Shown: positions 5,641-61,388 of the stretch, piece by piece
Position numbering within the stretch: the first letter of the stretch is position 1
Layout of the letters: every line of letters begins with the position of its first letter
From: Podarcis cretensis
Lineage: Eukaryota
Direction of reading: 5' to 3'
Assembly: GCA_951804945.1 (NCBI GenBank)
Contig: OX638151.1
Span: forward strand, 75,268,001-75,332,000
DNA length: 64,000 nt
The notes under the pieces: generated by a model
The model's database searches: none
What the model was told of the DNA's origin: nothing
Seen by the model: the letters and a program-made list of their open reading frames with translations, nothing else
Translations under genes and position numbers: made by a program

Positions 5641-6270
5641 AGATGAAGGTCTACCAGGCTTGCATGTTGAGCACACTGCTTTATGGAAGTGAGTTGTGGG
5701 CAACTTACACCCGCCAGGAGCAACACCTCAATGCCTTTCTTATGCATTGCCTCAGGAAGATTTTGGGCATCACCTGGCAAGACAGCAAACAAAGATGTGC
5801 TTTTCTGAGCCACATTCCCAGCATGTTTGCACTTTTGTCTTAGCAATGTCTACACTGGCTTGGTCATGTACACAGAATGGATGATGGCAAACTTCCCAAT
5901 AAAGCTCAATGGGGAGCTGGTTTCAGGCACTAGGCCCGGTGGCAGACCAAATCTACCTTACAAAGATGTCTGCAAACGTGACCTGAAGGCTGGCAACATT
6001 AACCCCACTATGTGGGAATCCCTTGCAGGCGAATACAGTGCCTGGAGACAGTCAGATTGTGTATCTACAGCAGTTACCAGAGAAGGAATGACTGCTGGGA
6101 GGAGTGCAGAGAGAAGAAATGCCATGGTGCACCTGTAGCAGCAACCAGATACCTTCATCTGCCCCAGCCAAAGGCACCGTAACTCTCCAACAGTTTGAGT
6201 TTACCTCTGAAGGCACACTTTTCAATTGTCTCTTGAGACAGACAGACAGACAAATGCCAACCACAATCAC
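5641..6270 (+). mobile_element. RTE-clade LINE 3' fragment, decayed
   Basis: KVYQACMLSTLLYGSELW...HCLRKILGITWQD and GELVSGTRPGGRP...YKDVCKRDLK are RTE ORF C-terminal motifs; frameshifted. Confidence 0.85.
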
Positions 6271-9200: not shown

Positions 9201-9859
9201 CCACACTGCAAGGTTTTGTTGCGGCTCTCCCTTGTATATACTAATAGCAAACTCAAGTGCTGTTTTTGATGGCAATGAAGCCAAAATGAGGCTACTGGGG
9301 GAGGGGAAGGTGGCATCAGTATGCACAGGGGAACCCCAAGGTTTGCAGAAATTGAAAAACGAAAACACCATTTAGGGTAAAAACCTAAAGAGGCAACTTT
9401 ATGCCCCAAAACAGCCCGATGAGGACTGACCATGCTCAAGCAGTCAGACTGAGTGCCTGTTTTGGGGCAGAGTGGTGGAAGCCTCAAGGTGGGAGGAATG
9501 GAATGGAGTGTCTTGGAAAAGGGCCCTGCTATGTGCCCTCCTTTGTGTGTGATTGAAATGTGTCTTTGAACAGCCCCTCCTCCAATCTGGGGAGTTGTGA
9601 TTGTCCTATCAGCCAGCCGTCAGGTCTATGGCTGCTGTTGCTGAATGCCAGGTTGGCTCGGAGTAACACCTCCATGATCTGATTATGGAAGAGGCGGCCG
9701 ATCTGGCCTGTACCACCGAGACCTGGGTGAGTGAGCAGGGTGGAATTGGTCTCACCTGGCTATGCCCACCTGGGTACTCAGAACTTTGTTAGACTTGAAG
9801 GTTGGGGAGGGAGAGTTGCTGTGGTCTATAGAAATTTTCTTTTCTCTCTTTAGGCTTTC

Positions 9860-10440
9860 TGTCCAGTTGTGTGGGGGCTGAGAGATCCAGTGGGCTTCCA
9901 GATGGCTCTGGGGGATTTTCCAGTTGATATGACTGGCACTTCTGTCAAAGCCCTGGTCGATCTCTGGAACATCCAAATGGCTCACGTCATTGACATGAGA
10001 GTCTCTGAACACCCTCGCCCACTTAATGGAGCCTATTCAGGATTGCAATACCTCAAGGACCACCTCACTCCCTATAAACCAACATGGTTATCATCTGAGG
10101 CCCTTCTTTGGGTGCCTCCGTCCAGAGGCCCAGAAGGGGGCAACACCAGAATAGGCCTTTTCTGTAGCAGTTCCGTTTGTTGAATGCTCTCCTCAGGGAG
10201 GCTCGCCTAGTGCCTTCATTACATATCTTTAGGCACCAGGCAAAAACATTTCTCTATAACCAGGCCTTTAGCTGGTTAATGTTCTATGGCCTTTTAAATG
10301 TGTTTGTGGGAGCAGGGTTATTGGTTTCTTTTGTTTTGTGATGCATTTTGTGTTCTCATTTTGTATTTTTATGTTGTGAACCACACAGTGATCTTCAAAT
10401 GAAGGGAGGTATACAAAATCAATAAATAATAAAATAAAAG
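9860..10440 (+). mobile_element. L2 LINE fragments (internal ORF2 piece joined to the 3' end)
   Basis: DPVGFQMALGDFPVDMTG...ALVDLWN and YLKDHLTPYKP...SSEALLWVP motifs; ends in an (aataa) tail. Confidence 0.75.
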
Positions 10441-23079: not shown

Positions 23080-23991
23080 GTTAATTTGAGTCAGGTGTCA
23101 CAGTGCAGGTCCTGAACCAGTTCTTGGATGCGGTGGTGGGCGGGATGAGGGCCAATAAAAGCTGGAGTGGAATCCTAACAAGATGGAGGCTCTGCAGGTG
23201 AGTGGTTCATGGATTCAGGATCTGGGCCTGGCTAGAGTTGCACATCCCTGAAGTAGATGTTTTATAGCATGGGGTGCTTCTTGATCTTTGTCACTGGAGG
23301 CTCAGGTGACTTTGCTGGTCCAGAGTGCTGGTTACCACTTTTGGCTTGTGTACCAGCTATGCTCTTTCCTGGACAGAGTCACCCATGCACTAATAATAGC
23401 CTCTGGATTGAATTATTGCAATGTGCTCTATATGAAACTGCCCTTACAGTTGGTATGGAATCAGCAGCTAGTGCAAAATGTGGCAGCTAGGATACTTAGT
23501 GGAGCTTCCCCACATTGCATCTGTGCTAAAAGGCACTGGCTGCCAATTCACTACTGAACCAAATGTAAGGTTTTGTCACTGACTTGTAAGGCCCTGAAAT
23601 GTTTAGGACCAGGATCTCTGACAGAGTGCCTCGTTCCTTCTGCACATTTCAGTCCGTTCACAGAGATCGTAGGAGGATGCCCTTCCAATTTCACTGTGCC
23701 CATTAGAAATGCATCTGGTGGTGACCTGAGAAAGGGTTTCTCTGCAGTGGCCCCCATGCTGTGGAATAAGCTCTCCTTAGAGACATGGTGGGCATCTGCA
23801 ATGGTGGTATTCTACCAGTTCCTGAAGATATATCTATTTGTGAGGTCATTTCCGAGAAGCGATTTCTTATAACAGCTCTATTAGAATATCAGTGGTATTT
23901 CTGTTTTAATGTCTGTTTTGTTGCTTTTATCTTATAAACTCCTTGTTGTTTTACAGTGAAAGGCAGTATATAAATGTTGAAATAAATAAAT
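23080..23991 (+). mobile_element. L2 LINE 3' fragment in intron 2
   Basis: VTHALIIASGLNYCNVLYMKLPL...QLVQNVAARIL...HWLPI and FSAVAPMLWNKL are L2 ORF2 C-terminal motifs; aaataaataaa tail. Confidence 0.88.
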
Positions 23992-29158: not shown

Positions 29159-29477
29159 GATTTAGGAGTAGTTACAACACAGATCATATGTCCAACAATT
29201 TATCCAATTTCACTTGAATTAAATTATTTAGCTGTGATCAAACAGCTGAATATACCTTACAATGAATGTTTCTATATAGATAAACAAAGCCTCAAAAAAT
29301 AAGAACTGAAGTCAGTCACTTTAAAATGATACCACTACATAATCTCCAAGCATATGACAAGCCTTCATGGAAAGATGAGGTTCTAGGATTGGTAAAAAAA
29401 TACAATCCAAGCACATGCAGGTGCACATACACAACACAGGTGTATCTCGGAACATTACTCTAACTACAGCTGTAAAT

Positions 29478-29723
29478 CAAAACAAAATAAAAAAATTCCT
29501 TCCAGTAGCACCTTAAAGACCAACTAAGTTAGTTCTTGGTATGAGCTTTTGTGTGCATGCACACTTCTTCAGATACAGTGTGTGTATCAGTGTGTATCTG
29601 AAGAAGTGTGCATGCACACGAAAGCTCATACCAAGAACTAACTTAGTTGGTCTTTAAGGTGCTACTGGAAGAAATTTTTTTATTTTGTTTTGACTATGGC
29701 AGACCAACACGGCTACCTATCTG
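29478..29723. mobile_element. Penelope-like insertion with inverted arms and a 17-bp TSD
   Basis: ~100-bp inverted repeats (29477-29577 and 29593-29693); direct repeat taactacagctgtaaat at 29461-29477 and 29724-29740. Confidence 0.8.
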
Positions 29724-30516
29724 TAACTACAGCTGTAAATGACAGCATTAATATTTCATAAGCATGTTTTTCTCCATTAAATCAGCTCATTACTTACATA
29801 ATTACATGAGGTGATATTTGAGTAATCTCTCAAAAATATTATGACAGAGAATGTTTATTTGTGCAAATTGAGCCTACCAAAATCTACCAAAAGCTTTGTT
29901 TAGCCCATGCCCGTATAAAAGATGCTGTTCTCCAACCATTTCTTTGTAAATGAGGAGTAAGTATTAGATTTATTGAGTTATACTGGCATTATTCTTGAAA
30001 GCAGAGCAAGTTTCTCTTATTTTGTTTTCCATTAATGAATCAGCTGAAATCCAGACCAGTAAACAGATTATTGGATTTTGATCTGGGGCTAGCCACAAGA
30101 TTGGGCAACTCACCATCTCTTGATCTTAGCCCCCCCCCCCCCCCCGCCGATCAAATGACAATTATGAGAATGTGAAAAGGAACACGGCAAAGGCTGCAAA
30201 GCAGAGTTAAATCTGTGGCAACACATAATGAAGAAAGTTACAGATATCTCGATTCTAAAGGGAGTGTGAGGGGCATGGAATCAAGGAAGAATAAGTATTT
30301 CCTTCTGCTAACTTTTCACTTGACAAAGGAGACTATAATGAAATCAAATGAGGATACTGGCTATCCAAATTTCTTAGAGGAATCCAGATAAGTAGTTAAT
30401 TATGAGAAACAACCACAAACATTTCAAGAACTTAAAGTACTGTTCAAAACAGCCTCGGCAGTAGTTCCAGACCTGTGTGTAGTAAGACATATGCAACCCA
30501 GTATTCTCAGAGTTAA

Positions 30517-30878
30517 AGTAAGGTAAAGGTACCCCTGCCCGTACGGGCCAGTCTTGACAGACTCTGGGGTTGTGCGCCCATCTCACTTAAGAGGCCAGGG
30601 GCCAGCGCTGTCCGGAGATACTTCCGGGTCACGTGGCCAGCGTGACATCGCTGCTCTGGCGAGCCAGAGCTGCACACGGAAACGCCGTTTACCTTCCCGC
30701 TGGTAAGCGGTCCCTATTTATCTACTTGCACCCGGAGGTGTTTTCGAACTGCTAGGTTGGCAGACGCTGGGACCGAGCAGCGGGAGCGCACCCCGCCGCA
30801 GGGATTCGAACCGCCGACCTTTCGATCGGCAAGCCCTAGGCGCTGAGGCTTTAACCCACAGCGCCACCTGCGTCCCGG
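30517..30878 (-). mobile_element. Full-length Sauria SINE with a 14-bp TSD
   Basis: tRNA-like head GGGACGCAGGTGGCGCTGTGG...GGTTCGAATCC, (ACCTTT) tail, CpG-rich; TSD attctcagagttaa at 30503-30516 and 30879-30892. Confidence 0.93.
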
Positions 30879-32525
30879 ATTCTCAGAGTTAAGCGTATAT
30901 AAAAGAGTAAATGGGAGCTGGACTTCCTATTCCCTACAGCAAACCACCAGACCCCAAAAAGCTCTACTGAGGATTAGGAGCCTCTGCTGAATGGACTAAG
31001 AGGGAAGGTGGATCCCCCCCTAAATCATGCCATGGTACCTTCCATAAGTGGAACTCCCACAGGTGGAAGGTGCTTCTGCCTGATTTTTGGGGGACCCCCA
31101 TTCTCCCACAGTCCATCCCACTCAGCAGAGGCTCAGAGCTCTTGGTGAAGCATTTTTGGGGGCCGGGGGGTGGGTTGCAATGGCAAGCAGGAATGTCAGC
31201 TAGCTCTGTGCTTAACTCTGGATCCAATCCATTATTTGCACATATTTATGTTTGCCAATACAAAGCTGGCAATTTTAAAAAAAGTTTTTTCAGCCAGCTT
31301 GTAATGTGGCAAAGAAGATCAAACCAAGCAAGCGAGCCACTCTAGCACAGAAAAATGATGTTAGCTGCTTCCTAGATATTAGCTGATGCTCAGGCTGATC
31401 AATTAAGTGCCATTTGTCAAGAGTTTCACAGTATCCCCACCTAAGTCATATGCACGGTATATACTAGGTACATTTTAAAGCTTCTAATTCTGTTTCTCAT
31501 AGCTAATCATTTAATTGGGCTTTATGGGAGTGTGAAATAATGCAAGTCCATAGAGATAATTAGCCTATTACAAGTTTCCTGGTCATTCCCCAAAACTGTG
31601 ACATCCAGATCCAGTTTATATCAGTTGAAGTTCTGGTCCCCTTTCTACATACAAGCCTTTCCATGCTATTTGTTGTAGGAGGATACATTTAATAACTAGA
31701 AAGGAATGAATTTACACCCTCCCTTAGCTCCGTGGTCAGTTTATTTAGCCACAGTAGCAGCACAGGTTATAGCTGTTCCACCACAAGTTGCAGGACAGGG
31801 ACAAAAATGATGGGCCGTCCCTACCATTATTAACTAGCTGAACTTCACGCCTAGCTATAATAGCTACTCTATATGAAGGAATAAACAGGCAACCAATTGC
31901 TCATCCGGGATAATTTTTTCCAGCCCTTCTGAAACAACAACAAAGAATGTACCCACTCCAGAGACATGGACTGAAATATACCTGTGCGTCCAGCTACAAA
32001 TAAAGGTGCACTGCCCTAGATAAACAAGTCACATAAATACAGGCTACTTATTTAATGACCTGGCCTTAACATCATCCTTTCTTCTTGGAACCCTATAAAG
32101 AACTGATACAATAAGCCTATTTAAAAAACCCCTCAGTCTAATAATTCAAGGAACAACAACCCATTTCAATGCAACCATAGTATTTCACTACCTGATCCAG
32201 GAGTAGAGAATGTTGTTCTCTCCTACAGATAGGTATGATTAGAACCCGGATCTACAATACAATCTTTAGAAATTTCCATTCCTAAATTAAGTAACATTCT
32301 TGCCTATTTAGCAACACAGACATTAGTCGATTTACGGCAGTTTGGAGATGTTTGTGCTTTCCTGTGCAGAAGGTATTTTCTCCAGGTGTATTTCTAGGGG
32401 TGAACCTTGGAAAGCCATGACACCCAAACATTAAAGAATGTAGAAATCAAGAAGACAAACCCACTTCCAAGAACAATGTGATCTGGCTACCAGGTTTGAA
32501 TCATCCTTTGCAAACATGTTCTTAC

Positions 32526-40530: not shown

Positions 40531-41724
40531 GGAGACTACCAAAAGGCCCGGCCTGTTTTTGTTTTTTATTTTTACTTCTTTTGCATCTCCCAAAACAACA
40601 ACTTTTAAAGAAAGACACTGTCCCCTAGAAGAGATAATCCCACAATGGAGAGTCCATTAGAGGTATTAAGGCACTGGCAGCAGCCTGATCTACAAGAGCA
40701 GCTCTGTCCTGACAATAGACAATTAAAGCTGATAAATCTGAACTACTTGTTGCTGTTCTAATTCCTTGTAATTGTGTGCTGCTTGTCCCTGCCTCCTGCA
40801 CACAGGGATGAAGCATGCTTCTTTAATCTCCAGAGTACCTGACCTAGTTCCTATGTGGTCTTTTCAGGACCTGTTTTCTTCCCATCTGGACCTCTCTCCA
40901 CCCCTTCCCGCCTCCTCCAAAAGCACAGAGGAGTGTTAGCAGAGAGGAAAAGAGAAAACATCAGAACTCAGCACCAGGATAATATTTCTGTAACGCCAAA
41001 CAATATTCTAATCTGCAAACAGCAGCCAATTTTGCCAGTTTGGCAAAATTGTGATCAAACTGTACTTTTTGTTATTAAAAGCGCAAAAAGTGGAGCACAT
41101 GCACAATGACAAGCCAAATTGTCTGACCAATACTGGCTGCCAAACCTGCATGTTACACTCGTGTGCGCGTGTGTTTTCATACACCACCCACACACTTTGA
41201 GATTTTACTTCTCTCCATTCACTGGTATGTTTGTGTTCAGCTAGACTATATAGGTTTTTTTGAGTGCATTATTCTTCCGATAAGCTATATACTGTTATGC
41301 TAACAAACACTGCAGTTCTAACCATACCTACTCAGAAGAAAGACGTGCTGAATTTAAATGGGGTTTACTCCCAGTAAGTGAAGCTAGGAGTGCTGCCTTT
41401 CAGCAAATTGAATCCTAGGCTTTTCATATAGCTCTCACAAGACAGGTAATTATTTATGTTTGTTTGTGTGCATAATAGCAGAGGAAACTTTGTGTATCTG
41501 CATCTACTAGATTCAAAACAGCATAATTAATCCTCTTACAGAGCTCAATTAATAATTTCAGGGTGCCTGGGTTTGGCAGCACAGGGATAAGAAAATATGG
41601 TTGTAGGAATGCCTACTGGTCTTAAAAATTCTATAAATTTATTTACATCTGAACATACTTTGGAGAATAATCTTGGAACTAATGCCTATTTCCAAGTTAG
41701 CAGCATTCTACCCTCTTATTTCTT

Positions 41725-42314
41725 TTTTTTTTTTTTTTTTTATAATAATTTTTATTAATTTTCCACACATAAAATAAAGAACAGTGTAACACAATATAAC
41801 TTCATACTCATCGGTTCATAGCCTTTTTTCTTTGACTTCCCCATACCTCCCCATCCCTGCATCCTTGTTTAAAAATTCTTTAGCAACCCTTAAGTCCATT
41901 GTCTTAGTTCCTTTTCGTAAATATTTCTTAAGTTTTTTTTTTGTTTACTGCTGCAATTCTTTACTTCTTACCCCCTGACATCTTAACATTCCTCAATTTT
42001 ACAGTTATTTTTAAGATATATTTTGAAATTCTTCCAGTCCTCTTCCACTGTCTCTTTCCCCTGGTCCCGGATTCTGCCCGTCATCTCAGCCAGTCCCATA
42101 AAGTCAATCACCTTTGTTTGCCATTCTTCCAGAGTAGGTAGTTCTTGCGTCTTCCAATACTTTGCCAGTAGAATTCTTGCTGCTGTAGTGGCATACATAA
42201 AGAAAGTCCTATCCTTCCTTAACACCTCTTGGCCCACCATACCCAAGAGGAAAGCCTCTGGTTTCTTAGGAAAAGTCCACTTAAGGACCTTCTTAATTTC
42301 ATTATAGATCATTT
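41725..42314 (-). mobile_element. 5'-truncated L1-clade LINE (ORF2 C-terminus, 3' UTR, poly(A)) with a 13-bp TSD
   Basis: Open ORF 41983..42312 (...PEAFLLG...AARILLAKYWK...EEW); AATAAA and poly(A) (T-run ~41723-41742); TSD cctcttatttctt at 41712-41724 and 42315-42327. Confidence 0.9.
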
Positions 42315-45300
42315 CCTCTTATTTCTTAAGTGCCTCTTCCTCCACCTTCTTATGCTAGCAGAGCTGACAGAAGAGACTTTTATTTTATTTTATTTTCCCA
42401 TGCAGCATGGCTTAATGTTTTGTGACAGCTTGTTGTTGGATTTTTTGGACTGGAGTCCTAATTGTCACAGGCTTCTCAAAACATTTCATTTACAGTTTTA
42501 CCAGGAATACTTTCATGTGCAGAGAGTGGAGAGTTCCACTATGCTGCCCCCAGTCAAGCTGTCAGTAATGCCGTTTGCTGGCTTCTTTCAGTTGTCCAAG
42601 TCAGACGGGCAGGAAAGCATCACCCCTAATGTTTTTACAGTAGTAATCTCCATTTGTTTTAAATAATGTTTTAAAAATAAGTCAGTAGTCTCTCTATTTT
42701 AATAGAAGCTTACTAATAAAATGAAAATAAAAAACCTACTTATGTTTACCATTTCACTTGCATCCTAGTCTATCTCCCCGCCACCATACTTCTGTACTAG
42801 AAACAACAATACTTTTAAACAAAGAAATTATGGAGACTATAGATAAGGTTACTAGAAATGACAGCCCAGTCTATATTTCAACATATGAAGCTTTAGTTAA
42901 CTAAACAAATGAAGAAGTGCTTTCGAATAATAATAAAGGGGGAGGGGGAGGAACAGCTTGTAATAGAGAATGTCCTGGATCTTTTGTTTCCATTTAGGAT
43001 AACAACTGGGCTTTGCAAAGAAAAGACAACAGGCAGTTCATACTAAATTAGACCTGCCAACTGCTAGTTAGAATATTGCAAATAATTTACTTTCCATGAT
43101 AAAAGCAAAAGCAAGCAGCACCCAGCAGGGGCCCAGCTGATAAAACTGTGTCAAACTCAAACCATTTGTCAACCGGGAAGGAAAAGAACAGAGCTGAAAG
43201 ATGGACTCAGGAAACAGATTTATCTGGCGCAACACATTAACTAGTATAAATACCATGGGAGGAGGGAGAAAGTAAACACATTTATTCAGTATCTCCAGCT
43301 AGCCAGAAGAAGAATCACTCACGTAACTCACAGCCCGTGCCACCCAAACACTCATTTGTCACAGAACAGTAGCATTTTTCTTTTGTGTACAACGCGAGTG
43401 TTGTTTAATGCATAGCACTGAAAGGTTTTAGTAGCACACACACAAAAAAAGTGTGGTTAAACAAGGCAAGATGCAAATTCCTACCATTTTAACAAGGCAA
43501 GATGCAAATTCCTACCATTTTAAGCAATAAAACTTCAGGTCATAAACACATGAGGTAACACCTACTAAAACTTCCATCTATGTTTTGCACTTCTGTTTAC
43601 TGAAGTAAACTGATGTTATAGGAGGGATACCAAAAAAGAGGAATGCAATGCAGTGCTATGAATGCTATGAACTGGGACTGTACCCAAACAAAACAGAAAA
43701 CTTTTTTTAAAAATGCTAGCCCTTTTCTTTGCAAAGACATTCGTTTTGAACAGTTGCATATAATTTCCGTTATGAAATAGTGTTATGAAAACAGACAAAC
43801 GCAGGTTGCCAAAGCTAACTGGAGTGCATACACAAGAGGTTTTCTTTAAAACTAAAGTAAAAACAACAACAACATAGCAAAAGGTATACTGTAAGACAAT
43901 TAAAACCACAGTCAGTTAATACATAAATATTAATCTAATGCAGTATATTCTTTAGCAGTACCTTTGAACAGCCATGTAGGACAGGTTTCCAATCTTCGTT
44001 CATGCATCCCAGAGTTTTAGTCCGTATATTTGTCTTCTGTCACTCACTCACTCATTCACACACCACACACACACATGCACACATTAACACGCAGGACACA
44101 TGCTCTCTACCTCTCACACTGAGACACTCCTCTAACCCTGTCTGGAGCCAAGCCTTGGATTTTAGAATTTCCTCCTGTGAGAAGATTTTCCCCCACCCCT
44201 TTCCTTCTACTCCACCCCATTCAGTAATTAGGCTTAACAAGAGCAATTAACAAAATAAACTCTGCTTAGGCTGGTGGTCTGATAATTCTGATTACCAAGA
44301 CCTTTGGGAAATAATCAAAAATATTTAAACAGATACTTTCACAGGGGCTTTAAAAACCCACCTTTTCTGCCACAGCTTATTGCAATTATTTGCAGTTTGG
44401 TTGGAGATCGGATAGCGTGATCTCATTCTGGTGGCTTCAATATGTTATATTTTACTGAATTTTACTGAAAAGTTGCAATAGTTTAATAACATCAGACAAT
44501 TTAATAATGCAAAATAAATATTGTGTTGAGATGATCAAAATGTTTTAAATTTTATTTATTGCATTTTATTGTTTGCGTTTTGATATACCCCTGTAAACCA
44601 CCTTTGGAAGTGTTTTATTTTTGAAATGCAGAATATGCATTTGACAAATAACTTAAGGAAGGTACCAGCACAAACTTTGTCTGATTTAATTTTCCATTAT
44701 ATAATAATATGACATTAGAACACAGACTTGAGTAGTTTTTAAAAATCTTTCATTTATTTATTAATCAATGTAAAAAGACACTCAAGTACAAAAATCATGA
44801 AACAGTGTCCTTAATAAATATATTATGTTCCTACACAGACTCGGTGCCTTTCCTACCTAATAAAGACATTTTTCAAGTTACCTGAGATGTACATTGATTG
44901 AATAAAATATGGGCTTTGCTTTCATCCCTGACTTTTGGATTGGATTCAGGACTAATAGGAATTGTTTCAAAACCAAAAACCAAGTATCAATGGATTTAGC
45001 TTAGTGATAGAAATGTCAGTAAACTATCAGCTGTTTGTGGCAACTTTCTGTTTCTGCAATAAAGTTCACCTAAAACGTAAAGACCCCAATCCAGAGGACT
45101 GCTGCAACAGCTGAAAGTTGTGTGTGTACTGCCACACTTGCACATATATAACATTCATCTGATCACAGCAACACCATTTCTCCTAAAATGTTCAGAGATT
45201 CACATTAACAGGTGCTGGTGTTGTATATCTACAATCTGCAACAGTTTCCTCTTGTCGTTAGGTGATATTTATATTAGCAGAAATAAATAATACGTTGCTC

Positions 45301-54109: not shown

Positions 54110-54256
54110 CAGTGCTTTTTTTCTGGGGGTACGCAGGGGTACGCATACCCCTAAACATTTTGTGAATCTAAGTTTGGCCTCATTGAGGGGCAGTGTTTCA
54201 ATAGGAGTAGGAAAATGAGAGTACCCCTAAACATTTTTTAATAGAAAAAAGCACTG
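54110..54256. mobile_element. hAT MITE with 8-bp TSD cagctagg
   Basis: TIRs cagtgctttttt / aaaaaagcactg; TSD at 54102-54109 and 54257-54264. Confidence 0.9.
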
Positions 54257-54809
54257 CAGCTAGGAATGATGCTCTCAGTATTACAGATGTAAAGGCAATT
54301 TCCTAATTCAAGCCACTTGTCTCTTGTGATCTCTGCATCTCTAGTTTAGATTTCTAGTCAGAAATGTGAAGTAGTGTCGTATCCAAAATGCAGGCTCAAA
54401 GTCCTCGCTGCTCCACCTCCAAAAGCTGTCAATAGGTCTGGACTATGTCTGTCCACAGCTTTGCATTCATAGAGACCATTTGACAGAAGGGCAAGGAAGA
54501 CATCCAGGAAAACTGCTTTCAGACCTTATCTGAGCAACAATAGTTAACTTTCACCACCTGGGCATGGCTTCCGGAGAGAAAACAATCACACGTATTGTCT
54601 CCTTCTGGACAATAACCACTAAACCAGCCTCCAGTTGATGCCAAATGTTTCTTTTTTTTAAAAAAAAAACAACAACAACCCTTATTTTTAGTCAGGACAG
54701 TATTTCTAGTCTTTCATCTCCCCACCCCTGCCCTCAGTAACACAAACCAGTCTGTAATTGGTATTATGCAATATTAGAAATATGGGCCTCATAGTTATTA
54801 ATTGAAATC

Positions 54810-55061
54810 CCATGAAAATGGACAGGATGAGGCGCAGCGCCTGCTCTGAAGTACCCATCAAGCTCTTTACCTCTGCCAGACTCGTGGCTATCTGGAAACC
54901 AGCTCTGGCACCACTGCCCTCGTCCCCCATCTCCTCTGCCCGCCCGCCCGCCCGCCCACCCACCTGACCGGACTTGCTCAAGGTGGCCCCATTAGACGCC
55001 TAGCATCAGTAGTGGCAGCAACACTGGCAGCGCAGTAGCCCCCGCACCCAAGCCATACCTC
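54810..55061 (-). pseudogene. LPCAT3: Retroposed 5' fragment of LPCAT3 (MBOAT5): GC-rich leader plus first ~40 codons
   Basis: MGDEGSGARAGFQIATSLAEVKSLMGTSEQALRLILSIFMG resembles the LPCAT3 N-terminus (human, recalled: ...GDEG...GFQ...LGASEQALRLIISIFLG). Flanked by a 14-bp direct repeat tatt(a/c)attgaaatc at 54796-54809 and 55062-55075. Confidence 0.85.
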
Positions 55062-56454
55062 TATTCATTGAAATCAAGTTATTGTACCTAAATTCAAGGT
55101 ACTGTGGAAAATTAAGGGACTTTTTTTTTAACCCACTTCACAGACCACGCAGAAGATATCATAGCTTATAATCTCTTTCTAGCAAGAACAATTCTATATT
55201 TGTTTCTAGCAAAAGGAGGGAGGGCAAGCAATTTTTGCAAATGCCCTCCTTTCTCCTGTAGCTGTCATGGATTGGCTGGATGTGGAGGGGGGTACCAGCT
55301 GGGCAACCCCCAAGGGGACCCCCCCAAGGTGTCTCAGAGCCAGGGGATTTGTGCTGAGGTGATAATGGGTGGTCAGAGGGAGAAGAGGGGACAGACTGGG
55401 AGGAGGAGGTGTCAGAAGCTGAAGAGGCAACAGGATTTAGTGAGCAGGAAAAGGCTGGGGCAGAGAGCAGTCCAGATTCAAACCATTTGTATTCTGCATA
55501 TATCTACGCTAGTATTTTAATGCATTCTGAGATTAACTGAATGGATGTATATATTATGGAAACGTGTGATCTGCTTCGTAGTAAGTATGTTTAGAGTGCT
55601 GGCGTGAAATATAGATATCTTTCTGTGTTTTGAAATTTTTGGTATATGAGGCAGAGCTTGCTCATTAAACACCAGTTTGTTCTTTCTCTCTCAAAGACAA
55701 TTATTTTCCTCCAATGATGACATTTTTCCTTTTTTGTAAACCATGTACAGAATAATTTTATCCATTTTATTCTATTACAACCTGCAGAAAACTAGATTTT
55801 AACTGAGCTTCCTTCATTGCTAATTGGTCTGAAGTGTACAATTATGTCCTCCTTTACCTGGTAAGAGCATATTGGATTTAACCAACCCAACTAATTTTAC
55901 AAAAATAACATGATATGTAAAATAGGTTTGTTCCCTAGAGCTTTCTGCTCCCTCCTATCAAAGATATTGAGTTCAATTTACAATGACCTCTGAATGACCT
56001 ATAGACAAAGTTTTAAAGGTCTTTGCCTCAGCTACCATCAGGAAGTGGCTCTCTGGAAATGCCTTTTGAAAAACACACACCACAAAGAGCAGTAACAGCT
56101 GAAGTGACCCAGGAGTCAATTCCTGATCCCTGTACAGGAGAATCCCCTTCACCCTTTTGGCGTTTCATCCATCTTCATTTGCTTTTACTTTTTGTCATTT
56201 CCTCTTGACTTGCAAAATGAAAGACAGAGGAATCTATGATTCTTCTTCTACCTCTTACTTTTACAGCAAATAGCTACTTCCCCCAGAGGTACACAGAGTG
56301 CATTCTGCTGTATTCTATTACTCTGAAAGTGTCCCTGTTTTGAAGATTCATGGGGCTGGAATAGGACTCATAGGTCATTTAGTCCAACCACCTATTCAGT
56401 GCAGGAAATTCATAGGTACATCATCCTCAACAGACAGCTGTCCATCCATGGGGT

Positions 56455-56570: not shown

Positions 56571-59500
56571 TTCCAACACAAATAGCAATTGTCAGGCAGG
56601 TTCAACTGTAATTAATGTATTGCGAAGTTCACATAAAGCAAGCAGGATCTGTATTTTTAAAAATAAAATAGATTTGCATGAAGGTAGCCGTTGCAATGCT
56701 AGTGAAATGTGAATGTTGGCAGCCAGGCTTAGGTTGTACTGTGCTGAGGACAAATTTGGGGGCTGGCCTTGATTCCTCAGGAGTGGTCTGGAGTTACTGA
56801 AGGGGCTCAATTGTCAAAATAATCATGCAACATTGTAGCTTTTGCAAGTCAAAGCAGTGAAGTGTAGGTGAACAGGTTTATAGTATGTGAGATTATTAAT
56901 AAGTACACATCAGCCATGTATAACATTTGGAGCACACCATATAACAACACTGAGTTCTCTTTTAAAAAAATTGTTTTAAATACACATATATGCATACACA
57001 CACATATACACAGAGACTCTGCAAAGTTAGGGAAGGTTGGGTCATTGATGAGTATCTTGAATTTTTTGTGTGTGTGTGAAATAGAGATCCTAAAAGCAAT
57101 CTCATTGGATCTGGAATACTTGGAGACCTGGACATAATGAAGTCTTTCAGCAACAGCGGTTCAGCGGTGTAACCACTTCAAGGAAATTTAAATGGGGGTG
57201 TTAGCTCTGTTTCATTTTCTGAGCCAGGTAGACTAACTCACAATACGAGTGGGAGGACTCCATGGTTTTTTTCCTCCTTCTCTGAGGATCAACAACAGAT
57301 TGGCCTGCATAGGAAGTCAGGATATTTAGGGGGCCTTTGTTAATACCACTGTTGCAGATGTTTAATTATGTTTTGGCCTAGCTCAGTCCATAACTTGTCT
57401 CATGTCTTCCTTCTGGGGTGGGTGCCTATAGCAATTGATGTCTTATTATACATCTTTGACTAAGTAGTGAAAATTATAGAGGGCTTCTCAAAAGCAAACC
57501 CTGCATAATTATAAAGTAAATAAACTGCATATTCTTAGTATCAAGATAATCTTTAAGCAATTTCTCACACTCCTAAATGCATTCCTCTTATGTAAAACAG
57601 ATGTATGTCTTTGGGGTAGGCTTTGTGTTTCATTCATGTACTGTGAAAGTTCCTTGTAATTAAAGGAGGAAATACAAATTTCCTTGTCTAGTTCTAAGGA
57701 TAAATTCTTGAGATGTGGATGCTTGTGGGAGCAGGGTGAGAGAACACATGGGAAACTGAGGAACGTCTGTCTCTCTCTCCCCCCCACCCCCTGCCCAAAA
57801 GGAAAAACGTTTGAAAATTTTTTACGAAGAAAACCCAAACTCTTAATATTTTTATTCTCTTTCCAAATGATGAGTGAAAACATTTTATTTCAACTGTTAT
57901 GATAACTCCAAGTGTATTTATTTTCTTGGCCTGATTCTCTATGGCTGATCAGACCAGACAAACATGGTCTACAGTATTCAGTTTTGACATATCCAGTGCG
58001 AATGTAAAAGGCGAAACATTTCAGACTTTTGCATGGTTACTCAGATTCAGTGTCTACTGAATAGGCAAGAAGAAACCAATTTCCACACCTGTCAAAAATA
58101 GATTAATATCCTTGCTAATTGCACTTTAGGAATGGTCAATTAGTTCTAGTTAAACAGCTTTTGAAGAAGGGAGGGAGAAAGTAGGCTGGTATTGCCACCA
58201 GCACACATTGTTATACTGAATAGACCTGTGCGAGAAGCGACGTGTGCCTCTGACATTTCATTGGAGCTCCTGCTGTACAACACAGCAATAATGCCATTCT
58301 TCTAGCTACGAGTCCATTTTAACGATGATTAGGGACAGGAATGGTTACAAATCTTATATAAAGGAAAAACACAGTGGCACAGTGTGAGTTTTAAACTACC
58401 CTTCAGATGTCACATCTCTGTCAAGAAAGACAGAAAGAAAAACGACAAGCTTTTCTAAAAGTAAAAGGAAAGTTTTTTTGCAGCAACATATAATATATAT
58501 TTATTATATATATGTAACATATAATATTTATGTATTTCCCACAGAGGGGGAAAGCCAGCAATTCTTCTGAATTTGAAAAACAGGATTATATGAAATCCTG
58601 ACCTTGACTACTGACAACTTAAGTATCCATACTACCTACGGAAAATCTAAAAAATAAAAGTCAGGGCCAAGGGTTATTCTCATGATAAGTTAGTAAACAT
58701 AGCAGGAAGGTTAGTTAATAAACACCAACTAAACCCTTCAATTACAGCAATAAATTGTTCAAATTGGTTAAATGTCCACAGTTTTTGCCCCAAACCCTAT
58801 GGTGAGCTGTTTAATCAGCAAACCATTGCATCACTCAACAAACAGATATTGGCGGTCTCTGGGAGACACAAAGCAGCCCCTTAAGAATTAGTCCTTGATT
58901 GGCCAGCACACTTAGTTTCCTCAAAACTTGAAACTGAAAAAAGCTTTTAACTAAAAATAAATGTGAATAACAAGTTCCTTCTAACAATATAACATTTTTC
59001 TGCAGAAGCCACATGTGTTTTATATTCTGACATAATGTTTTTCACGTGGGCTGCCTCATGTATATTCTGTTATGGAAAATCCTGCCTCTGGGATCAGTTC
59101 AGTAACAGAGCTATACTGACCTTGGACACCTATATGTAAAAAAACAGGCTATATATTTTGTAATAATAAAGAAGATAAAGAAAGAAGGGCAAATCTTTAT
59201 TATTCCTTCTATTACTTTCATTTTCAAATTACATGGCTTCAGAGAGGCTTATGCTAACACCAGCATGTTCAGCTGATGGCCTAGTCTGCACTTAACACTA
59301 AACCATGGTTAATGTTAACCACAGCTAAAGCTGACCATGAATCATAGCGAAAGCTAAGGTGTCTAGCGGATGATCACTTAAACCTTAGTTAATTGTGTCA
59401 CAGAATACAGTAGTTAAGAGCATCAGTGAAAGCAGCCAAGCCCAGAGGGAAGTTGGATTTGATTTTTTAAAATTTTTATTTTTTGCCACTTTTCATTTGC

Positions 59501-61388
59501 AGCTCTGTAGCTTTTAGGTTATGATGTCTCTTTAAACATAGCTATGGAGGTCCTGGTTCACTAGTAATACTAAGCTATGGTTAGTGTTAACTAAGATTTA
59601 TAAACCAACTGCAAATGTTGGTTAATGAATGACCTTTAATCATAGTAACCATAAGTAATCTGCTAGGCTGGGTTCACACATAAATCCAAGTCATAATGTT
59701 AAGCTATGGTTTAATGAACCATGGTTTAGCATTATGTGCTAACCAGGCCAATGTGTCTGTTGAAACTCTCTTTCTATTCCGTTTTAGGTACTGCAACGAA
59801 GCCCCTGTCCTGTCATGAATCTAACAACTTGGCAGCATGGCCCCTGGCCTTCTATTCTGCAGACTCTTTAAACATGCACTTCATAACCTTTGTACTCCAG
59901 ACAGTCTTTGGCATTAATACTCTAGCTATGAGAGTTTGAGATTTCATGTGTACTTTCCCCCCAGGCAAAGCATTGTAAATATTTGGAAGTACACTGAAAC
60001 TGATAAAATTGTCATAAAAGTGTTAGAAAAGTAACTTTTCACCCCAAATGATTTTCATGGATAGTCTAAACTTTGTTCTTTGCAATCAAAAGCAAATGAT
60101 GGAGACAAAAAAGTTAAAAAAAAATCCTACTGGGTATGCTTAAAAGAGATATTTGGATCCGGCCTTAAGTGATTTTGACATTTTTTATTATTGTTGTTAT
60201 TATCTACTCTTAAATTTGTTGATTACTGCAACACACTAATCATTTTAGATAGTAGGATCATTAATTATATTTTTATCTTTTATTTCAATTGCTTGATGCT
60301 GCTTACCATGCTTTGTAAGCCCATTTTGAATATGAAAGTATTATAGAAAGGTAGAGTGTAACTTAAATGAAGAAATAAGAATTAACAATCCTAACATTTA
60401 AAACAATAGAATAGTAGCATCATGTTGAACCCGCTTTACAAGCTGTTGACCACTAAATATTAAAAGCCTGTTTTCAAAGTATATCTACCCAATGAGTACA
60501 TGAAAACACATCTGAATATGGGAAGATGTCACTCCCCAAGGAGTACATACCGGTACCTAAATTTTGGGTGCTACCACTTTAAAGGTCTTATTTCTCACCC
60601 ATTTGTTAAATCTTTGGTGAGGACAGTACAGGGTTAGGGTTAAAAGTTGGGCTGGTATTTGGTGAGAAAGCAGTTCCCAAAGTATCTTGGTCCTAGATGT
60701 TAAGGCCTTTGGAGGTTAAACACCACGCTTCAAATTGGGCTCTGATACAGACAGACAACCAATTCAGTTACTACAAGTTGGGCACTTTATGTTCCAGTTG
60801 ATAGGCTTCTAGTCAACACTCTGGCAGCTGTTCCACAGCTCCCTGTCATCTACAGTGGTCTGGTTCACATATCACATGAAAGCAGAGTTTTAAACAAACT
60901 GGCTTGATGTGAAAATGCAGCATGCTGGTGCATGCTCTTGGAAAGTTCCCATGGTATTTCTTGCCTGCTTCTTCTTCTTCTTCTGCTGTGTTGTGTAGTT
61001 TGAACCTGGGCTCATGGTTTGTTTCTGCCAAAAGAACCCATGATAGCAACCAAGGTTTATTTTCCGGAAACAAAATACAAGCCTGCTTTCAAACAACACA
61101 ACAACACAAGCACTGGCTTTTCTTCATCCCCAGCATGGCAGCACCAGGAGGAAACCCCTGGGAACATCTGAGCTGCATGCTGCAACACACTGTTCATTCA
61201 CATCTTATATAGTCTCAGATTTATACCAGCAGTGAAAAAGTTATAAATGGTTCCAGACTAAACTACTGCTTCATAAAAACAGTGAAGGGAGGCCATGTTC
61301 TCTCAAACCGTTATTTTGCTCTGTCATCTTTCTTCCTAATCATACTACCTCTGTAAGCTCAGTAAGCAAGTAAGGCACCATGAAAATA

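What the first reader, a model, noticed from the sequence alone, without database searches (positions are those of the whole stretch)
54796..55075. Tailless retrocopy of only the 5' end of LPCAT3, ending at the presumed exon 1 boundary
Seen: a 252-bp GC-rich insert between 14-bp direct repeats, containing a leader with (GGGC)n and ~40 open codons of LPCAT3-like sequence. It ends ...ATT TTC ATG G directly against the TSD, with no poly(A), no GT donor and no downstream exons. Established: ordinary retrocopies keep the 3' end and lose the 5' end, and LPCAT3 is not a PRDM1 neighbour in human (ATG5 and PREP are). Recalled: LPCAT3 exon 1 ends after the first base of this Gly codon. Inference: a LINE reverse transcriptase copied either a free 5'-exon splicing intermediate or an mRNA primed internally by microhomology. 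The insert also places a housekeeping-gene leader ~20 kb upstream of PRDM1 in the same orientation.
Basis: partly seen in the sequence, partly recalled or inferred. Interest (0 to 1): 0.75.

Follow-up and report, generated by a model that had tools for sequence, protein, structure and literature searches.

The report
Tailless first-exon LPCAT3 retrocopy in lizards
A 252-base copy of only the first exon of the lipid gene LPCAT3, ending exactly at its splice site and lacking a poly(A) tail, sits between 14-base repeats upstream of PRDM1 in lizards; LINE-1 likely pasted it by priming on the spliced mRNA (a known route), but copying of a free splicing intermediate is not excluded.

Summary
A GC-rich 252-bp insert (54810-55061, minus strand) lies between 14-bp direct repeats (13/14 identical). 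It encodes LPCAT3 codons 1-40 plus one base, closest to lacertid lizards. In DNA runs of three organisms the parent gene leaves the window sequence one base past the insert's end and goes on as a GT-starting intron, so the copy ends at the exon 1 donor. All three organisms carry the insert. It is old (10 of 92 bases differ from the parent) and shows no sign of constraint. No empty site and no exon 2 DNA could be obtained. Best reading (0.55): a tailless retropseudogene, made by LINE-1 priming on the spliced mRNA at the first bases of exon 2. From the protein alone, that exon start fits the target better than 96-99% of coding positions over 6-10 bases. Main rival (0.25): reverse transcription of a free 5'-exon splicing intermediate, since a random end hits a junction only about 0.5-1.4% of the time. 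The class is known and already reported in lizards; I found no report of a solo copy ending at a donor. There is no evidence of an effect on PRDM1. Reading three bases of lacertid exon 2 would largely decide it.

The parts
55062..55075 (-). 5' copy of the 14-bp target-site duplication; preceded by TT on the sense strand (site TT|GA)
54931..55061 (-). 131-nt leader, likely the LPCAT3 5' UTR, with a GGGC/GGGT run of variable length between organisms; similar to the parent's upstream DNA at least to 54997, the last 64 nt not compared
   Evidence: X4 parent aligned to 54954 and its loose end matches 54967-54997 at 22 of 30 letters with one gap (by eye); 4- and 8-nt losses in the run in X4 and X11
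54810..54930 (-). LPCAT3 exon 1 coding part, 40 codons plus the first base of the Gly codon; frame open; ends at the parent's splice donor
54809..54809 (-). Shared G: first base of the 3' TSD, equal to intron 1 base 1 and to exon 2 base 1 (second base of the Gly codon, from the protein)
54796..54809 (-). 3' copy of the 14-bp target-site duplication, directly after the exon end, no poly(A)
41712..42327 (-). Control, not part of the insert: 5'-truncated L1-clade element with poly(A) tail, perfect 13-bp TSD and TT|AA site; shows that an L1 with this signature was active in this lineage

Best explanation
This is a copy of LPCAT3 exon 1 between 14-bp target duplications, likely made by LINE-1 target-primed reverse transcription on the spliced LPCAT3 mRNA, with the nicked DNA end inferred to have paired with the first bases of exon 2 rather than the poly(A) tail. 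Inferred steps: the L1 endonuclease nicked at TT|GA; the freed 3' end annealed by a short, imperfect match to the start of exon 2; reverse transcription then ran through exon 1 to or near the mRNA 5' end; a second nick 14 nt away gave the duplication. On this reading the end at the junction is a coincidence. Shown: the LPCAT3 identity, the end at the donor, the duplication, the missing tail and intron, and presence in three organisms. It has since drifted towards A/T like a neutral pseudogene, and no function is indicated.
For: 14-bp TSD with TT before it, like the L1 in the same window (13-bp TSD, TT|AA, poly(A); ORF2 relatives match human L1 ORF2p at E 1e-175). Exon 2 must start G-N-T-A-Y-C-C-N-T-T (Gly-Tyr-Pro-Phe in all lacertid full-length models). 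Against the target GATTTCAATT this matches at fixed positions 1, 3, 6, 9 and, in one TSD copy, 10. That ranks in the top 3.2% (3 nt), 2.0% (6 nt) and 0.8-3.6% (10 nt) of LPCAT3 coding positions. The intron start matches the target at base 1 and then fails at bases 2-6 (by eye). The exon's last G is kept in addition to the TSD's first G, so the primer end did not use the exon's terminal base and had a partner only if the RNA went on (sequence; inference). Internal priming with 2-18 nt of target match is the accepted route for tailless copies, reported in the anole (PMC5322556; PMC4476161: 25 3'-truncated U6 copies in Anolis). 3'-truncated tailless mRNA copies are common in humans.
Against: A randomly placed end hits an exon junction only 0.5-0.7% of the time (1.0-1.4% allowing one base; junction numbers assumed). 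The fit to exon 2 is weak at other lengths (top 9.8% at 4 nt, 3.9-13% at 14 nt), the lengths were chosen after the fact, base 4 is a certain mismatch, and the perfect match is only 1 nt unless the Gly codon is GGA (then 3 nt). The site is not A-rich, unlike the tailless consensus TT/WAAAAWW. The 4 housekeeping-mRNA tailless copies listed by PMC5322556 are 430-1750 bp, not first-exon-sized. No empty site was seen, so 'TSD' rests on the repeat and on the parent's divergence. A single exon has no exon-exon junction, so an RNA origin is inferred, not proved.
Confidence: 0.55

Rival explanations
1. L1 reverse transcriptase copied a free 5' exon, the RNA left after the first step of splicing (or a stalled or discarded form of it), starting end-to-end at its 3'-OH.
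For: Explains the exact end at the donor without coincidence. Cleaved upstream exons with a 3'-OH exactly at the 5' splice site exist on chromatin (PMC4410947, passages). L1 uses nuclear RNAs. In 10.1101/2025.02.02.635956, 6 of 17 mRNA/L1 chimeras end precisely at donors, some without an acceptor in the L1; the authors favour trans-splicing.
Against: Needs priming with no base pairing although the exon's last G could have paired with the primer's last C. It leaves the likeness of the target to exon 2 (top 1-10% of positions) as chance. The intermediate is short-lived and held in the spliceosome (general knowledge). No report of a solo copy came up in searches.
Confidence: 0.25
2. A longer retrocopy, or an exon 1/L1 chimera, inserted here and later lost its 3' part by a microhomology-guided deletion that stopped at the TSD.
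For: The insert is old, so there was time. First-exon/L1 chimeras ending at donors are known.
Against: The 3' TSD is whole and abuts the exon with no leftover A or L1 base. Organisms A and E have the same 3' junction. The deletion would need the same coincidence of end points.
Confidence: 0.07
3. DNA-level capture: a piece of the LPCAT3 CpG island was copied into a staggered break during repair.
For: A single exon has no splice junction to prove an RNA stage. The 5' end was not mapped to a start site.
Against: The end falls within one base of the donor and no intron DNA came along. The 14-bp TSD and TT|purine site are like the local L1's.
Confidence: 0.06
4. Internal priming on unspliced pre-mRNA at the first intron base.
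For: Intron base 1 (G) equals TSD base 1. Nuclear RNAs are used by L1.
Against: Only 1 nt pairs; intron bases 2-6 all mismatch the target (by eye). It needs the same junction coincidence over a much longer RNA.
Confidence: 0.04

Closest known systems
Tailless retropseudogenes (Noll et al. 2015, PMC5322556: read parts 1-4 of 5 and searched 5 of 6 supplements; group III snRNA pseudogenes, PMC4476161: passages and section 8; PMC2912911: passages)
   Same: 5' part kept, 3' truncated, no A tail, 8-35-bp TSD, TT before the site; class reported in therian mammals and the green anole; includes a few mRNA-derived copies
   Different: Source is a single first exon ending at the donor; the site is not A-rich; proven match to the RNA is only 1 nt so far; the lizard cases I saw were 5S, U2 and U6 RNAs, not mRNA
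5'-exon/LINE-1 chimeras (bioRxiv 10.1101/2025.02.02.635956: passages and the results section on mRNA chimeras; supplements closed)
   Same: First exon(s) of a cellular mRNA, sense orientation, ending precisely at a splice donor, inside a 14-17-bp TSD
   Different: Those carry a mostly near-full-length L1 and a poly(A) tail after the exon; here the exon abuts the TSD
3'-truncated processed pseudogenes of humans and apes (bioRxiv 10.1101/2020.06.07.139212: passages)
   Same: mRNA retrocopies lacking poly(A) with loss of 3' exons
   Different: Multi-exon copies; no end at a donor was mentioned in the passages read
Bov-B / Sauria SINE insertions of squamates (PMC13295347: abstract, results, discussion)
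   Same: Same host group; TSD-flanked
   Different: The Tn-TA signature (TTT about 10 nt upstream, TSD starting with A or T) is absent: TTT lies at -15 to -17 and the TSD starts with G

Membership tests
Tailless retropseudogene (PMC5322556 criteria) | 3'-truncated by at least 10 nt, no oligo(A) tail | tested here: met
   Ends after base 121 of a roughly 1440-nt coding sequence, directly against the TSD
Tailless retropseudogene (PMC5322556 criteria) | TSD of 8-35 nt, at least 70% identical | tested here: met
   14 nt, 93%; chance 6 of 9000
Tailless retropseudogene (PMC5322556 criteria) | Not a genomic duplication (flanks not shared with the source) | tested here: met
   Parent diverges into intron 1 beyond 54809 in 3 of 3 DNA runs; the 5' edge was not seen on the parent
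Tailless retropseudogene (PMC5322556 criteria) | 5' end nearly complete (at the RNA start) | tested here: inconclusive
   131-nt leader, parent-like to at least 67 nt upstream of the ATG; no start-site data; the one RNA-labelled run laid gave 0 contigs
Tailless retropseudogene (PMC5322556 criteria) | Target complementary to 2-18 nt of the source RNA at the 3' end | tested here: inconclusive
   1 nt certain, 3 nt if the Gly codon is GGA; imperfect fit in the top 1-10% of positions; exon 2 DNA not obtained
Tailless retropseudogene (PMC5322556 criteria) | Target resembles TT/WAAAAWW (a consensus, not a filter) | tested here: inconclusive
   TT present; TSD starts GATTTCA, matching only positions 2 and 7
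Tailless retropseudogene (PMC5322556 criteria) | Clean empty site in relatives | not testable with these tools
5'-exon/LINE-1 chimera | 5' exon(s) ending at a splice donor | tested here: met
5'-exon/LINE-1 chimera | L1 segment and poly(A) between the exon and the 3' TSD | tested here: not met
   No base between exon end and TSD; not a member
Classical processed pseudogene | Poly(A) tail and spliced exon-exon junctions | tested here: not met
   Single exon, no tail, no other LPCAT3 exon in the window
Bov-B/RTE-mobilised insertion | Tn-TA signature | tested here: not met
   TTT at -15 to -17, TSD begins with G against the pattern

The most novel reading that the evidence does not exclude
This is a germline fossil of a splicing intermediate. 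LINE-1 reverse transcriptase captured the free, 5'-splice-site-cleaved first exon of LPCAT3 and inserted it alone. That would be a route that makes solo first-exon insertions, and could also explain the donor-ended mRNA/L1 chimeras whose L1 part has no splice acceptor. Such copies would record the start sites and donors used in ancestral germlines.
Probability: 0.25. Interest if true: 0.7.

Novelty: new member of a known kind. Interest (0 to 1): 0.4.

Why it matters
On the best reading it is an ordinary by-product: an mRNA-derived tailless retropseudogene, adding lacertid lizards and a protein-coding first exon to a class documented mostly in mammals, and a usable presence/absence marker for lacertid phylogeny. 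If the rival is right, L1 can reach RNA in or just released from the spliceosome and can prime without pairing. That bears on the open question of where L1 picks up cellular RNA, and it is cheaply testable by counting donor-ended tailless copies in any good genome. There is no evidence that it affects PRDM1.

Tried and rejected
Own genome: none held, so no BLAST to the parent and no genome-wide scan. Sequencing runs: no RNA holder listed among 24 rows; RNA-labelled run X21 gave 0 laid contigs; neither blank is evidence on expression. Exon 2 DNA: viral contigs gave nothing; metagenome contigs gave 8 loci, 7 at 33-45% identity and one 37-residue mid-protein match at 76%, none a lizard exon 2; not used. 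Trans-splicing onto a transcript of the target site: rejected, since the target has TT, not AG, before the TSD. Bov-B/RTE as mobiliser: signature not met. Structured RNA or known RNA family: folding z +1.06, no Rfam match. Pfam: no family for the 41-aa peptide or four repeat-derived ORFs; one sub-threshold hit for the L1 fragment; the direct PDB search of that fragment was uninformative. Function as a new exon or peptide: the frame stays open into the flank, but 5 of 10 differences from the parent change amino acids (read by eye), and only one donor-like motif lies in the 409 nt downstream; not pursued. Literature: searches found 0 papers; others listed nothing describing a solo donor-ended copy (judged from listings, plus passages of two papers and one). 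The library lacks most subscription papers, and the bioRxiv supplements (e.g. the chimera table of 2025.02.02.635956) were closed and may bear on novelty. Earlier scan notes: nothing near, and no look-alike sequence.

Full report
Observation. The insert spans 54810-55061 (252 bp, GC 0.62 against 0.40 for the window). It lies between 14-bp direct repeats at 54796-54809 and 55062-55075 with one mismatch. This 14-mer has no other match within 2 mismatches in the window, and only 6 of 9000 sampled 14-mers have such a partner 50-600 nt away. On the minus strand it reads as a 131-nt leader, an ATG at 54930, 40 codons and one more G, then the repeat, with no A tail. The window holds PRDM1 on the same strand, with its MKMDM exon about 22 kb from the insert (the gene name rests on recalled motifs).

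Identity. The peptide's only hit among 15 candidates is Podarcis muralis LPCAT3 (E 1.5e-7); the two best PDB hits are LPCAT3. Among 25 LPCAT3 N-termini printed, IATSL with GTSEQ occurs only in the lacertid models (Podarcis, Zootoca). The source is therefore a lacertid-like LPCAT3, and the event likely postdates the origin of that lineage. Homology stops at the Gly before Y-P-F, and no other LPCAT3 exon is in the window.

The breakpoint. No genome was available, so I laid public contigs on 54450-55280 (4 of 24 listed runs). In all three DNA runs (organisms A, B, E) a second locus matches the coding part down to 54809 and then leaves with an identical loose end. On the sense strand it begins GT right after ATG G, contains GTAAG, is GC-rich and does not encode Y-P-F. 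This is intron 1. Whether the tool's loose end overlaps the aligned part by four letters I cannot tell; either way the donor GT is at the same place. Two alternative P. muralis gene models with different first exons also join at G|YPF. So the copy ends at the exon 1 donor. The only ambiguity is one G that the TSD, the intron and exon 2 share. Upstream, organism B's parent aligns to 54954, and its loose end still matches 54967-54997 at 22 of 30 letters (by eye), so the leader is parent-derived at least that far.

Reality and age. X1 contigs bridge both junctions, an X11 contig spans the whole stretch, and X4 bridges the right junction. No empty site was seen. Copy and parent differ at 10 of 92 bases in 54809-54900, and all 10 differences are shared by the three organisms. 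Nine of the 10 are A/T in the copy against G/C in the parent, three are CpG transitions, and five change amino acids (by eye). Organism E's copy differs from the window at 9 of 244 insert sites and 8 of 535 flank sites (p 0.06). The insertion is thus several times older than the A-E split, probably tens of millions of years (inference), and it shows no constraint.

Mobiliser. Thirteen kb away lies a 5'-truncated LINE with a poly(A) tail, a perfect 13-bp TSD and a TT|AA site. Its ORF is 88-91% identical to the three closest Podarcis reverse-transcriptase proteins, and one 1244-aa relative matches human L1 ORF2p at E 1e-175. The insert's site is TT|GA with a 14-bp TSD, which fits L1 loosely and lacks the Bov-B Tn-TA signature. 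That L1 made this insert is inferred.

Which RNA was copied. Two coincidences pull against each other. First, a random end lands on a junction about 0.5-0.7% of the time, or 1.0-1.4% allowing one base (junction counts assumed). This favours an RNA that really ended there, the cleaved 5' exon, which exists on chromatin with a 3'-OH at the 5' splice site (PMC4410947, passages). Second, the target resembles the start of exon 2. The protein fixes that start as G-N-T-A-Y-C-C-N-T-T, and it fits the TSD better than 97%, 98% and 96-99% of LPCAT3 coding positions over 3, 6 and 10 bases, but only 90% over 4 and 87-96% over 14 (codons equally weighted, lengths chosen after the fact). The intron fits at base 1 and fails at bases 2-6. 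In addition, the exon's last G is kept besides the TSD's first G, so a free exon would have been primed with no pairing at all. My rough likelihoods for the two sides nearly cancel, so the prior decides. Tailless copies by internal priming are an established class with 2-18 nt of target match (PMC5322556; PMC4476161; PMC2912911), and 3'-truncated tailless mRNA copies are frequent in humans. Solo copies of splicing intermediates did not come up in my searches. I therefore give 0.55 to priming on spliced mRNA, 0.25 to the free exon, 0.07 to later deletion, 0.06 to DNA capture and 0.04 to pre-mRNA priming. The bases that would decide it could not be obtained.

Comparison with what is known. It meets the structural criteria for a tailless retropseudogene (TSD, 3' truncation, no tail, not a duplication); target complementarity and the 5' end are inconclusive. 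Tailless copies are already reported in the green anole, and PMC5322556 lists 4 housekeeping-mRNA cases in human, of 430-1750 bp. The end at a donor has a precedent in mRNA/L1 chimeras, where 6 of 17 end precisely at donors, but those carry an L1 and a tail, so this is not a member of that group. Two earlier scan notes describe related tailless copies in other genomes; they are unchecked leads.

Function. The copy lacks the donor, has no known RNA family or unusual fold, and drifts at least as fast as its flanks. The position upstream of PRDM1 is real but nothing suggests a role.

Verdict. A real, old, tailless first-exon retrocopy. Most likely a new member of a known class whose end happens to fall on the splice junction, with about a one-in-four chance that it is the fossil of a splicing intermediate. 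Interest 0.4.

Noticed in passing
window 41712-42327 (-): 5'-truncated L1-clade element with poly(A) tail, perfect 13-bp TSD and TT|AA site; its open ORF2 C-terminus is up to 91% identical to Podarcis proteins.
   Followed up: yes
window 54110-54256: About 147-bp MITE with 13-nt perfect terminal inverted repeats and an 8-bp direct repeat on either side; hAT-like by recalled features.
   Followed up: partly
window 54809-54846: The last 38 bp are identical between copy and parent in organisms A and B, while the next 54 bp hold 10 differences; chance of such a gap 0.035. Could be chance or later gene conversion.
   Followed up: partly
run X4, record 13 (54809-54846): Depth 49 on the node shared by copy and parent, against 13-18 for single-copy contigs: possibly a third copy in organism B, or noise on a 38-nt contig.
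   Followed up: no
window 54901-54930 and parent loose ends: The parent's N-terminal Gly tract differs in length and sequence among organisms A, B, E and the named lacertids, so this part is unsuited for dating.
   Followed up: partly
window 5809-6138, 9854-10183, 23285-23872: ORF fragments that look like RTE/Bov-B and L2/CR1 LINE remnants (recalled motifs; no Pfam hit).
   Followed up: no
window 30250-31250: CpG-rich stretch (o/e up to 0.81) just downstream of the PRDM1 MKMDM exon, inside the gene.
   Followed up: no
window 29458-29742 and 59305-59591: Longer near-identical direct repeats about 263 and 272 nt apart; not examined.
   Followed up: no
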